In this document: positions 43,589 through 45,183 of the stretch, in pieces
Numbering within the stretch: the first letter of the stretch is position 1
Layout: each line of letters opens with the position of its first letter
Source of the DNA: a virus
Lineage: Duplodnaviria > Caudoviricetes
Virus record (IMG/VR): IMGVR_UViG_3300035497_000162
Location: 32,001 to 96,000 of that record
Strand: one strand, 5' to 3'
Length of the DNA: 64,000 bases
The notes under the pieces: generated by a model
Told to the model about the DNA's origin: nothing
Seen by the model: the letters and a program-made list of their open reading frames with translations, nothing else
Databases searched by the model: none
Made by a program: the position numbers and the translations under genes

Positions 43589-43661
43589 GCTACTTTAGCT
43601 CAGATGGTAGAGCAATTGATTAGTAATCAATAGGTCATCTGTTCGATCCAGATAAGTAGCT
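43589..43661 (+). tRNA. tRNA-Thr(AGT)
   Basis: Acceptor GCTACTT/AAGTAGC; anticodon stem ATTGA/TCAAT, loop TTAGTAA; followed by TCA rather than CCA. Confidence 0.85.
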
Positions 43662-43667
43662 TCACTT

Positions 43668-43802
43668 GAGGTTGTTTATACCTTTAAAGTACATCGCTAC
43701 TCGTATAGAGTCTAGATGTAAAGTTATGTTATTTGAGGTTTTATATGTATACTAAATAACATAATAGTAAAACATCGTCGATTATATTCTAATTACATAT
43801 AT
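43668..43802 (+). CRISPR. guide cassette 4, between tRNA-Thr and tRNA-Gln
   Basis: Scaffold 43668-43737, repeat 43738-43773, 29-nt spacer ending at the tRNA-Gln 5' base. Confidence 0.88.
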
Positions 43803-43876
43803 TTCAGAATAGTGAAATGGTATCACATTGGATTTTGATTCCAATATTCTTAGTTCGAGTCTAGGTTCTGAAACCA
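43803..43876 (+). tRNA. tRNA-Gln(TTG)
   Basis: TTCAGAA/TTCTGAA acceptor, loop TTTTGAT, CCA end. Confidence 0.9.
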
Positions 43877-44175
43877 CTAGCTATTATACTATATATAGTA
43901 TAATAGACTAAGTACTTTTAATTACTTTTTAAATCTTAAACAAAGTATTAGCCCGTCTATGCTAGATAGGCTGGTTTGATACAACCACTTTGTACTAAAG
44001 TAAAAAGGGTATCTAAGGTTTTAATCTATTCCTTATAGTACAAAAAAGATTATGCTTTGAAAAGTTTCAAGTTTCTATATTTCAGTACAGCGTAAAATCT
44101 TTTCTATAAAAGAGTACTGAAGATCTTATATATTAAATAATATAATAGTAAAATATATTTGACAGTACTTTATTT

Positions 44176-44252
44176 GGCTCGTTAGTTTAGTCGGTTAGAA
44201 TACATGCCTGTCACGCATGAGGTCAACAGTTCAAATCTGTTACGAGTCGCCA
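44176..44252 (+). tRNA. tRNA-Asp(GTC)
   Basis: CATGC-CTGTCAC-GCATG anticodon arm, CCA end. Confidence 0.93.
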
Positions 44253-44572
44253 CGAAGTATTATAATATTACATAGAATAAATATTCTTTTATTCCCTCAA
44301 ATTGATGTTTATTTATTATTTTTTAATTTGCTTTATAATAAATAAACATTATAGATATATTATAATATTTCGACAAGTTTTTGGTTTAGCGCTCTTAATT
44401 GAGTTCAATTCTTGGTAAAGTTATATAAATCCAAGAGTCAAGTGTATACGGCAACTTTCATGGAGCTGAAAATTAAGCAGAGACGAAGAAATACACAGAA
44501 ATACTAACTCTATATAAATATAGAGGAGAATCTTAATTGACAGTCTGGAATAGACAGACGTTAATATTATTT

Positions 44573-44743
44573 GAGGTAGTTTATACCTTTTAAGTACATC
44601 GCTACTTCTTAATGAAGTTTAGGTGTAAAATTATGTTATTTGAGGTTTTATACGTATACTAAATAACATAGTAATAAAACGTAATAGTAACTGTTACTGG
44701 AAGTATCGTTTTATATGTATATAAAATAACATAATAGTAAAAC
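44573..44743 (+). CRISPR. guide cassette 5: scaffold, 2 repeats, 1 internal spacer
   Basis: Repeats 44645-44680 and 44708-44743; 27-nt spacer. Confidence 0.9.
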
Positions 44744-44781
44744 GGACCAGTAGTTGTAGGTTCAAATCCTATCTAAGTCCA
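44744..44781 (+). pseudogene. 3' half of a tRNA (Pro-like) directly after the last repeat
   Basis: GGACCAGTAGTT-GTAGG-TTCAAAT-CCTAT-CTAAGTCCA: T-arm and acceptor strand, no 5' half. Confidence 0.6.
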
Positions 44782-44788
44782 TTTTTAT

Positions 44789-44863
44789 GGAGTATTAGTC
44801 AAGTTGGTAAGACAATAGATTGCAAATCTATGATCGTTGGTTCAAATCCAATATACTCCTCCA
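44789..44863 (+). tRNA. tRNA-Cys(GCA)
   Basis: GGAGTAT/ATACTCC acceptor, loop TTGCAAA, CCA end. Confidence 0.92.
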
Positions 44864-44866
44864 TTT

Positions 44867-45183
44867 GAGGTAGTTTATCCCTTTTAAGTACATCGCTACT
44901 CGTATAGAGCTTAGGTGTAAAGTTATGTTATTTGAGGTTTTATATGTATACTAAATAACATAGTAATAAAACTCAGGATATGGTTCTATTATTAAATTAA
45001 GAGTTTTATATGTATACTAAATAACATAGTAATAAAACAATCTGTACATATATTTTGTATTAATTGTTTTATATGTATACTAAATAACATAGTAATAAAA
45101 CGAAAAAACATAAGATTAATAATTTAGAGTTGTTTTATACATATACTAAATAGCATAATAGAAAAACATCTTTAGTAAATAGT
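44867..45183 (+). CRISPR. guide cassette 6: scaffold, 4 repeats, 3 spacers, terminal guide
   Basis: Repeats at 44937, 45003, 45066 and 45132 (degenerate); spacers of 30, 27 and 30 nt. Confidence 0.93.

What the first reader, a model, noticed from the sequence alone, without database searches (positions are those of the whole stretch)
43589..44936. Natural tRNA-guide RNA polycistron
Seen: scaffold 4 starts 3 nt after the tRNA-Thr TCA end, and its only spacer ends exactly at the first base of tRNA-Gln with no closing repeat. Scaffold 6 starts 3 nt after the tRNA-Cys CCA. Known: RNase P and tRNA 3' nucleases cut at such boundaries, which engineered tRNA-gRNA arrays exploit. Inference: host tRNA processing matures these guides.
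Basis: partly seen in the sequence, partly recalled or inferred. Interest (0 to 1): 0.8.

Follow-up and report, generated by a model that had tools for sequence, protein, structure and literature searches.

The report
Phage guide RNAs fused to tRNAs
In a T4-like phage, guide-RNA genes for its own small RNA-guided DNA cutter sit flush against tRNA genes, so the host's tRNA-trimming enzymes probably cut the guides free; this would be a natural version of a trick genome engineers invented, but no RNA data could be obtained to show it.

Summary
Observation confirmed. All four tRNA genes of this 119.7-kb, 26% GC phage lie in a 1.8-kb ORF-free RNA island (window 43449-45239). Three of the phage's ten guide cassettes lie there too. 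Each cassette is a 72-nt scaffold, a 36-nt repeat and spacers, serving a single TnpB-like nuclease gene at 8882-10126. Cassettes 4 and 6 begin in the same register after a tRNA 3' end: discriminator, NCA, 3 nt, then the GAGG hairpin. The only spacer of cassette 4 (29 nt) runs to base +1 of tRNA-Gln.

Interpretation partly supported. Six of the ten cassettes have a perfect TATAAT just upstream of the scaffold. The tRNA-Thr-linked cassette has no -10 match there, and the tRNA-Cys-linked one has only a weak TATACT. A promoter lies upstream of tRNA-Thr and a strong terminator follows cassette 6. tRNA-Thr lacks an encoded CCA, which makes it a typical RNase Z substrate. If the unit is co-transcribed, RNase P must cut at the spacer's end.

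Unproven: RNA data could not be obtained. The only fetched contigs covering this island are 100% identical copies of the same phage. tRNA-Cys encodes CCA. A hairpin plus T-run precedes tRNA-Cys. TnpB-type self-processing, or an insertion history in which the flank serves as guide, could also explain the layout.

Earlier notes of this scan report TnpB guide RNAs next to tRNAs on other DNA. I found no published natural tRNA-CRISPR/TnpB guide polycistron. Verdict: a new variant of known kinds, of moderate to high interest.

The parts
43449..43483 (+). Candidate sigma-70-type promoter of the RNA island: TTTACT, 17 nt, TATAAA, overlapping a TATAAT
   Evidence: Read from the sequence. A 74% identical promoter-like module lies at 57079-57128 (family D20). 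It shares the TATAAATATAATA motif with the cassette promoters.
43589..43664 (+). tRNA-Thr (anticodon AGT), discriminator T at 43661, followed by TCA instead of CCA
   Evidence: ARAGORN; Rfam tRNA 66.1 bits.
43666..43737 (+). Guide scaffold 4 (tracrRNA/omegaRNA-like); its 5' hairpin starts at 43668
   Evidence: Motif search; covariance model R1, 124.5 bits together with the repeat; consensus structure with compensatory pairs.
43738..43773 (+). 36-nt repeat of cassette 4. Its middle part pairs with the anti-repeat at the scaffold's 3' end.
43774..43802 (+). Only spacer (guide) of cassette 4, 29 nt, ending at tRNA-Gln -1 (a U)
   Evidence: Coordinates. No target was found.
43803..43876 (+). tRNA-Gln (TTG) with encoded CCA. 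The expected RNase P site lies between 43802 and 43803.
   Evidence: The MFE fold of 43589-43876 keeps both cloverleaves and the scaffold as separate modules.
43877..44175 (+). Structured RNA X of unknown function, between tRNA-Gln and tRNA-Asp
   Evidence: Folding z-score -4.2. No Rfam hit. No ORF longer than 27 aa on the + strand within X.
44176..44252 (+). tRNA-Asp (GTC) with encoded CCA
44253..44560 (+). Structured RNA Y of unknown function, ending in the hairpin 44543-44559
   Evidence: Folding z-score -4.9. Its 3' half is conserved with compensatory changes in the relative phage L011, where the hairpin is followed by a T-run.
44571..44743 (+). Cassette 5: scaffold, repeat (44645-44680), 27-nt spacer, repeat (44708-44743). 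It is preceded by a degenerate promoter motif, TTAATATTAT.
44744..44788 (+). tRNA 3'-half remnant in guide position. It forms a hairpin followed by TTTTTAT, a possible partial terminator.
   Evidence: Hairpin -10.2 kcal/mol. No 5' half exists anywhere in the genome.
44789..44863 (+). tRNA-Cys (GCA) with encoded CCA
   Evidence: 67.7 bits.
44865..45167 (+). Cassette 6: scaffold (hairpin from 44867), four repeats (44937, 45003, 45066 and a degenerate one at 45132) and spacers of 30, 27 and 30 nt
   Evidence: 128.7 bits. Scaffold plus repeat is 107/108 identical to cassette 3 at 39853.
45208..45239 (+). Intrinsic terminator closing the island: a 10-bp stem followed by seven T
   Evidence: -9.7 kcal/mol.
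8882..10126 (+). The only TnpB/Cas12f-like nuclease gene of the phage (414 aa), flanked by cassettes 1 and 2
   Evidence: Pfam PF07282, PF12323 and PF01385. Best solved natural relative is ISDra2 TnpB at 1e-32; the three RuvC acidic positions were read from the printed alignment to the top hit, 9yyg. It is the single copy in the genome.

Best explanation
Window 43449-45239 is the phage's tRNA operon, colonised by three guide-RNA cassettes of its TnpB-derived, CRISPR-like system.

Inferred steps:
1. One early-type promoter upstream of tRNA-Thr drives a long precursor that runs to the terminator after cassette 6.
2. Host RNase P cuts at the 5' end of every tRNA. At tRNA-Gln this cut is also the 3' end of the 29-nt guide of cassette 4.
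3. Host RNase Z cuts after the discriminator of the CCA-less tRNA-Thr. This frees scaffold 4 with a 6-nt 5' tail (UCACUU) before its first hairpin.
4. That tail is about as long as the leader expected from the promoters of the stand-alone cassettes.
5. At tRNA-Cys, which encodes CCA, separation from scaffold 6 needs another endonuclease cut just after CCA. Candidates are an RNase E/Y-type enzyme, a CCA-tolerant RNase Z, or the nuclease's own guide processing. Exonuclease trimming of the tRNA would follow.

In this model the tRNAs stand in for the promoter on the 5' side and for the closing repeat on the 3' side.

Shown here: the anatomy, the register, the absence of promoter motifs, and intact tRNAs and scaffolds. 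Inferred: co-transcription and every cleavage.
For: 1. Junction geometry is identical at two different tRNAs: discriminator, NCA, 3 nt, hairpin.
2. Six of ten cassettes carry a perfect TATAAT within 14 nt upstream of the hairpin, against a 3% background. Five of them carry the 12-mer TTAAATATAATA, and two also have TTTACA at 17 nt. The tRNA-Thr-linked cassette has no -10 match of 5/6 or better. The tRNA-Cys-linked one has only TATACT with a 3/6 -35 element, a class seen at 22% of random positions.
3. The region 43425-45290 has no ORF longer than 42 aa. Everything lies on one strand, bounded by a promoter-like module and a hairpin plus seven T.
4. All four tRNAs score 62-68 bits, have perfect or G-U acceptor stems, and have U at -1.
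5. tRNA-Thr has U74 instead of C74. In B. subtilis, RNase Z cuts such CCA-less precursors 3' of the discriminator and is blocked by CCA, and RNase P acts first on precursors with long leaders (PMC1874595).
6. The phage has no RNase Z-like or CCA-adding gene of its own.
7. Scaffolds 4 and 6 are intact at 124-129 bits. Scaffold 6 is near-identical to cassette 3, so these are not decayed relics.
8. The MFE fold of tRNA-Thr, cassette 4 and tRNA-Gln keeps three independent modules.
9. From established knowledge, not tested here: the T4 tRNA cluster is a polycistron that also carries non-tRNA stable RNAs and needs host RNase P and RNase BN/Z.
Against: 2. No conservation test was possible. The fetched contigs that cover the island are 100% identical copies of the same phage. 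The nearest different phage lacks the whole system. Relatives that have the system (L008, L009) are short contigs without tRNAs.
3. A -10.2 kcal/mol hairpin followed by TTTTTAT lies 7 nt before tRNA-Cys. The hairpin at 44543-44559 is a terminator in the relative. The island may therefore be two or three transcription units.
4. tRNA-Cys encodes CCA, which blocks B. subtilis-type RNase Z.
5. -10-like hexamers are common in this AT-rich DNA, so internal promoters cannot be excluded.
6. Guide 3' ends of TnpB/Cas12-type RNAs are usually set by protein protection and trimming. A 16-nt match at another cassette suggests only the first 16-20 nt matter, so the RNase P cut may be incidental.
Confidence: 0.55

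Rival explanations
1. The adjacency reflects insertion history rather than a processing design. The cassettes are, or were, mobile omegaRNA-like guide modules that landed in inter-tRNA spacers and in a tRNA gene. As with TnpB elements, the last 'spacer' is simply the flanking DNA, so the module can cut cassette-free alleles in co-infecting relatives and be copied in. The functional guide ends would be set by the nuclease itself and by trimming. Cuts by tRNA enzymes would happen but would not matter.
For: 1. Cassette 4 has one repeat and no closing repeat, like an omegaRNA followed by its flank.
2. The last repeat of cassette 5 abuts a tRNA 3' half that starts in the anticodon loop, as expected if a tRNA gene was disrupted.
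3. Other spacers match near-identical sites in the phage's own genome, that is, alleles of sister phages.
4. The protein is closest to bona fide TnpB.
5. RuvC-dependent guide maturation by Cas12/TnpB is stated in 10.64898/2026.04.20.719267.
6. Earlier notes of this scan describe guide-only TnpB modules beside phage and archaeal tRNAs on other DNA (unchecked leads).
Against: 1. No TnpA is present, I saw no IS ends, and no common motif lies 5' of the ten cassettes.
2. No empty-site allele or target was found for the 29-nt sequence.
3. 29 nt falls inside the narrow spacer length range.
4. The identical 3-nt register at two unrelated tRNAs, together with the loss of the promoter motif, is hard to obtain from insertion alone.
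5. This reading does not exclude co-transcription and processing.
Confidence: 0.25
2. Each tRNA-linked cassette is its own transcription unit. Weak promoters inside or overlapping the tRNA genes or repeats start the guides, and the hairpins with T-runs end them. There would then be no tRNA-guide precursor.
For: 1. TATACT (5/6) lies 9 nt upstream of the hairpin of cassette 6, inside tRNA-Cys.
2. Hairpin plus T-run sits at 44744-44788, and a terminator-like hairpin at 44543-44559.
3. The repeats contain TATAAA- and TATACT-like hexamers.
Against: 1. Cassette 4 has no -10 match of 5/6 or better upstream, and the TATACT has a poor -35 element and belongs to a class found at 22% of random sites.
2. 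tRNA-Gln and tRNA-Cys have no room for promoters of their own: 29 nt of spacer and 7 nt respectively. They must be read from upstream, through the cassettes.
Confidence: 0.1
3. The tRNA-linked cassettes are dead copies without function, trapped in the tRNA cluster.
For: No target was found for the spacer of cassette 4. Its repeat and scaffold each carry two substitutions against the search patterns used.
Against: Covariance-model scores are as high as for the other full-length cassettes, and all stems are kept. Cassette 6 is 107/108 identical to cassette 3 and carries spacers with near-self matches.
Confidence: 0.05

Closest known systems
Engineered polycistronic tRNA-gRNA arrays (PTG; tRNA promoters for sgRNAs, PMC4536327) and Haloferax icrRNAs flanked by tRNA-like elements (PMC4326828)
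   Same: Guide RNAs are placed flush between tRNAs or tRNA-like elements, so that RNase P defines the guide's 3' end and RNase Z its 5' end, independently of Cas processing enzymes.
   Different: Those are man-made and mostly serve Cas9, Cas12a or type I-B systems. Here the layout is natural, in a phage, serves a TnpB-like nuclease, and its processing is not shown.
Bacteriophage T4 tRNA gene cluster (own knowledge, not tested here)
   Same: Both are T4-like phage tRNA operons transcribed as polycistrons. They also hold non-tRNA stable RNAs, are matured by host RNase P, and need host RNase BN/Z plus CCA addition for CCA-less tRNAs.
   Different: The extra stable RNAs of T4 are not guide RNAs of a nuclease.
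Natural tRNA-linked small guide RNAs in eukaryotes and their viruses: plant dicistronic tRNA-snoRNA genes (mentioned in PMC2566860) and MHV68 tRNA-pre-miRNA transcripts cut by tRNase Z (mentioned in PMC4536327)
   Same: A small guide RNA is co-transcribed directly downstream of a tRNA and released by the tRNA 3' endonuclease.
   Different: Those involve Pol III transcription and snoRNA or miRNA guides in eukaryotic hosts, with no DNA-cutting effector.
TnpB-omegaRNA (ISDra2 type) and transposon-CRISPR intermediates (TranC; LaTranC structures 9jfo and 9jfq)
   Same: The effector belongs to the TnpB family. The scaffold lies directly 3' of the gene with the guide at its 3' end. In the TranC-like sense, the scaffold is split from, or joined to, CRISPR repeats, with arrays of spacers.
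   Different: There is no transposase and I saw no IS ends. One nuclease gene serves ten cassettes dispersed around a phage genome, three of them inside the tRNA operon. The protein is much closer to ISDra2 TnpB (1e-32) than to LaTranC (5e-16).

Membership tests
tRNA-punctuated polycistronic precursor (T4 tRNA operon or PTG type) | Canonical tRNA genes and cargo RNAs lie on the same strand, directly abutting | tested here: met
   The gaps are 1-3 nt at two junctions and 0 nt at the spacer/tRNA-Gln junction.
tRNA-punctuated polycistronic precursor (T4 tRNA operon or PTG type) | No promoter or terminator lies between the tRNA and the cargo | tested here: inconclusive
   Met for tRNA-Thr, cassette 4 and tRNA-Gln. 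A hairpin plus T-run precedes tRNA-Cys, and a weak TATACT lies inside tRNA-Cys.
tRNA-punctuated polycistronic precursor (T4 tRNA operon or PTG type) | A single precursor transcript is cleaved at the tRNA boundaries by RNase P and RNase Z | not testable with these tools
RNase Z substrate (CCA-less bacterial pre-tRNA) | No encoded CCA after the discriminator | tested here: met
   tRNA-Thr has T73 followed by TCA; the criterion is from PMC1874595. It is not met for tRNA-Cys, tRNA-Gln or tRNA-Asp, which all encode CCA.
TnpB-omegaRNA (OMEGA, IS200/IS605) | TnpB-fold nuclease with an intact RuvC D-E-D triad | tested here: met
   Pfam domains. The residues were read from the printed alignment to 9yyg, a TnpB-like chain. 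ISDra2 TnpB matches at 1e-32, but that alignment was not printed.
TnpB-omegaRNA (OMEGA, IS200/IS605) | Structured RNA directly 3' of tnpB with the guide at its 3' end | tested here: met
   Cassette 2 starts 9 nt after the stop codon. The same layout is seen in L008 and L009, and the stems covary.
TnpB-omegaRNA (OMEGA, IS200/IS605) | Part of an IS element with TnpA | tested here: not met
   No Y1 transposase is present in the 94%-complete genome.
Type V CRISPR-Cas with tracrRNA (Cas12f or TranC type) | Repeat-spacer arrays plus an anti-repeat that pairs with the repeat | tested here: met
   (an 11-bp anti-repeat:repeat helix). Hairpin-closed natural single-guide forms exist at genome 28869 and at window 10135.
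Type V CRISPR-Cas with tracrRNA (Cas12f or TranC type) | Adaptation module (cas1) in the locus or genome | tested here: not met
   No Cas1 is present in the genome; cas2 was not searched for.

The most novel reading that the evidence does not exclude
The phage has made host tRNA maturation an integral, selected part of guide-RNA biogenesis. tRNA genes would replace both the promoter and the closing repeat of TnpB-type guide cassettes, so that RNase P and RNase Z, rather than a Cas enzyme or RNase III, produce functional guide ends. This would be the first natural tRNA-guide RNA array. The tRNA half behind cassette 5, and a possible tRNA-Cys remnant upstream of cassette 3, hint that cassettes spread together with tRNA ends.
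Probability: 0.35. Interest if true: 0.75.

Novelty: new variant of a known kind. Interest (0 to 1): 0.6.

Why it matters
If confirmed, nature arrived at the tRNA-gRNA polycistron before engineers did. It would also show that an RNA-guided nuclease system can hand all guide maturation to universal housekeeping RNases. That bears on how TnpB-type single guides evolved into multi-guide arrays: any structured element that recruits an endonuclease can serve as punctuation. It also bears on how phages express weapons against competing phages from highly transcribed RNA operons. Finally, it offers compact, naturally tested junction designs: a 3-nt linker after NCA, and a guide placed flush with tRNA +1.

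Tried and rejected

2. Relatives carrying the same junctions:
- Exact or degenerate scaffold and repeat patterns found nothing real in IMG/VR, JGI metagenomes or GTDB genomes. L013, L033 and L029-L032 look like chance hits: L013 and L033 lie in unrelated sequence, and L029-L032 have one match each and were not opened.
- Look-up by the identical SpoVG protein returned contigs of the same phage; where they overlap the island they are 99.9-100% identical.
- The terL search found a related phage (G001/L011) that lacks TnpB and all cassettes.
- TnpB relatives L008 and L009 carry a homologous scaffold and array but no tRNA on their short contigs.

3. Target of the 29-nt spacer: none was found in the phage's own genome, G001, L008, L009, L012, or as an exact 20-mer in IMG/VR.

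4. A decayed scaffold upstream of tRNA-Asp was my impression on reading. The covariance model rejects it, and only a 26-nt repeat-like stretch remains.

5. Homology of RNA X to the region upstream of tRNA-Met in L011: none.

6. 'The scaffold is merely a CRISPR leader' is rejected. Three stems covary with L008 and L009, hairpin-closed single-guide forms exist, and the element sits where an omegaRNA would, directly after tnpB.

7. Host identity, and therefore its RNase set, was not determined. The genome search does not draw relatives for a virus record.
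Full report
**Setting.** The window lies in a 119,730-bp phage genome of 26% GC whose two ends overlap. It is T4-like, with a Gp23-type capsid protein at 55653-57041, and every ORF of 150 aa or more reads on the + strand. It carries one TnpB/Cas12f-like gene (8882-10126, 414 aa), matching PF07282, PF12323 and PF01385. This is the only copy in the genome. The closest solved natural protein is ISDra2 TnpB (E 1e-32), and LaTranC is more distant (5e-16). I read the three RuvC acidic positions as kept from the printed alignment to the top hit, 9yyg. The genome has no Y1 transposase and no Cas1.

**The cassettes.** A roughly 72-nt scaffold beginning TTGAGGTAGTTTATACC occurs ten times in the genome, seven of them in the window, always on the + strand.
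- In seven copies a full 36-nt repeat follows at once. In three copies only a shortened repeat remains. Spacers of 23-30 nt come next.
- The scaffold is an RNA. The consensus fold has a 5' hairpin (GAGGU/ACCUU), a second stem (UACAUC/GGUGUA) enclosing a small hairpin, and an 11-bp anti-repeat:repeat helix.
- Six pairs change on both sides yet stay paired in the homologous scaffolds that follow the TnpB genes of the relatives L008 (54% protein identity) and L009 (52%).
- In two copies the anti-repeat:repeat helix is closed by a short loop, which makes natural single-guide forms.

**The observation.**
- All four tRNA genes of the genome lie between 43589 and 44863.
- tRNA-Thr ends with discriminator T at 43661 and is followed by TCA, then CTT, then the GAGG hairpin at 43668.
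- tRNA-Cys ends with T and CCA (44860-44863) and is followed by TTT, then GAGG at 44867. The register is the same at two unrelated tRNAs.
- The repeat of cassette 4 is 43738-43773. Its only spacer, 43774-43802 (29 nt), ends at the base before tRNA-Gln (43803), and no closing repeat follows.

**What surrounds it.**
- Region 43425-45290 has no ORF longer than 42 aa.
- It begins with a promoter-like module, TTTACT-17-TATAAA/TATAAT at 43449-43483. A similar module lies at 57079, and the same TATAAATATAATA theme appears at the cassette promoters.
- It ends with a 10-bp hairpin plus seven T at 45208-45239.
- The order between them is tRNA-Thr, cassette 4, tRNA-Gln, structured RNA X (z -4.2), tRNA-Asp, structured RNA Y (z -4.9), cassette 5, a tRNA 3' half, tRNA-Cys, cassette 6.
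- The 3' half of RNA Y is conserved with compensatory changes in the related phage L011.

**Do the tRNA-linked cassettes have promoters of their own?**
- Six of ten cassettes have a perfect TATAAT within 14 nt of the hairpin, against a 3% background.
- Five of them carry the 12-mer TTAAATATAATA. This 12-mer occurs eight times in the genome, all on the + strand, and six of those are at cassettes. Two cassettes add TTTACA at 17 nt.
- The distal TATAAT would start the RNA roughly 5-6 nt before GAGG. An RNase Z cut after T43661 would leave 6 nt (UCACUU).
- Cassette 4 has no -10 match of 5/6 or better upstream. Cassette 6 has only TATACT inside tRNA-Cys, with a 3/6 -35 element, a class found at 22% of random positions.
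- tRNA-Gln and tRNA-Cys have no room for promoters of their own, so they must be transcribed through the cassettes upstream of them.

**Mechanism.**
- If the unit is co-transcribed, RNase P must cut at 43802/43803, because tRNA-Gln needs a mature 5' end. That same cut makes the 3' end of the guide.
- tRNA-Thr lacks CCA and has U74. In B. subtilis, RNase Z cuts such precursors 3' of the discriminator and is blocked by CCA, and RNase P acts first when the 5' leader is long (PMC1874595). Here the leader is about 100 nt.
- The phage encodes no RNase Z-like or CCA-adding enzyme, so the host's enzymes would have to do this.
- The MFE fold of 43589-43876 keeps both cloverleaves and the scaffold as separate modules.
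- At tRNA-Cys the encoded CCA argues against the B. subtilis type of RNase Z. An RNase E/Y-type cut, a CCA-tolerant RNase Z as in Thermotoga (PMC1540738), or RuvC-dependent self-processing by the nuclease would be needed. Self-processing by Cas12 and TnpB proteins is stated in 10.64898/2026.04.20.719267.

**Caveats.**
- No RNA data could be reached.
- The hairpin at 44543-44559 is followed by a T-run in L011 but by a degraded one here.
- The tRNA half at 44744-44782 folds at -10.2 kcal/mol and is followed by TTTTTAT. The island may therefore be read in two or three overlapping units.
- The spacer of cassette 4 has no known target.
- Other spacers match near-identical sites in the phage's own genome. 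39961 matches 39192, 45102 matches 1969, and the 16 nt after the last repeat of cassette 6 match 62196 exactly. Guides therefore seem aimed at sister phages, and perhaps only about 16 nt matter.
- That weakens the need for a precise 3' cut. It also supports a rival in which single-repeat cassettes are omegaRNA-like modules whose guide is simply the flank, inserted into the tRNA cluster. Earlier notes of this scan describe such modules beside tRNAs on other DNA (unchecked).
- The two readings differ on origin and on necessity. They agree that the cuts would occur.

**Comparison with the literature.** Full-text searches found engineered tRNA-flanked guides, namely Haloferax icrRNA (PMC4326828) and tRNA-driven sgRNAs (PMC4536327). 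They also found natural tRNA-linked snoRNA and miRNA precursors. They found no natural tRNA-CRISPR or tRNA-TnpB guide polycistron. TnpB-like nucleases with CRISPR arrays (TranC) are already described, so the wider system is a variant of a known kind. The tRNA fusion is the new feature.

**Verdict.** It is a new variant of known kinds, with interest 0.6.

Noticed in passing
window 43877-44175 and 44253-44560: Two ORF-free, strongly structured RNAs (folding z -4.2 and -4.9) sit between the tRNAs and have no Rfam match. The 3' half of the second is conserved with compensatory changes in the related phage L011 (2340-2490), where it ends in a proper terminator.
   Followed up: partly
window 44744-44788; L008 4613-4621: A tRNA 3' half, running from the anticodon loop to the discriminator, directly follows the last repeat of cassette 5 and forms a hairpin plus T-run. 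No 5' half exists in the genome. Its terminal 9-mer TAAGTCCAT also lies 1 nt after the last repeat of the array in the relative L008.
   Followed up: partly
window 10135-10223 and 8744-8818; genome 28869-28956: These are natural single-guide forms. In two cassettes the anti-repeat:repeat helix is closed by a short loop. In one cassette, in the 5' leader of the TnpB gene, the anti-repeat and most of the repeat are deleted.
   Followed up: partly
window 8819-8834; L008 about 4430 and 4532: The 16 nt AACGGCTTAAAAGTTT that follow the shortened cassette upstream of the TnpB gene also occur twice as spacer starts in the array of the relative L008. A guide shared between phages whose nucleases are only 54% identical may be regulatory or aimed at a common target.
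   Followed up: no
window 45168-45183 versus 62196-62211: The 16 nt after the degenerate last repeat of cassette 6 match a site at 62196-62211 exactly. It is a perfect self-match that would need a missing TAM or an inactive repeat to be tolerated.
   Followed up: partly
window 39838-39852 versus 44850-44864: The 15 nt upstream of cassette 3 match the 3' end of tRNA-Cys in the same register at 10 of 15 positions. I estimate p of about 0.01, post hoc. Scaffold plus repeat of cassettes 3 and 6 are 107/108 identical, so cassette 3 may be a copy of the tRNA-linked one.
   Followed up: partly
L011 2102-2172: The related phage has, in place of tRNA-Cys, a similar tRNA with anticodon TTA, which would read UAA as a suppressor. 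It also has a tRNA-Met.
   Followed up: no
window 43589-43661: tRNA-Thr has the anticodon AGT, with A at the wobble position, which is unusual for bacteria and their phages. From my own knowledge, some Mollicutes have such a tRNA.
   Followed up: no
window 25451-25577: About five tandem copies of a 21-bp unit (CGTTCAAAAAAATACCTGACT), four of them identical, lie in an intergenic stretch. They look like iterons.
   Followed up: no
window 45285-47126: The terminase large-subunit ORF stops at 45860. An ORF beginning MIGYIYETTNLINGKKYIGKH, which I read as GIY-YIG-like without running a domain search, follows at 46287. Similar ORF starts recur at 48395 and 52478. Other notes of this scan cover this region and a possible CGG-linked +1 recoding.
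   Followed up: no
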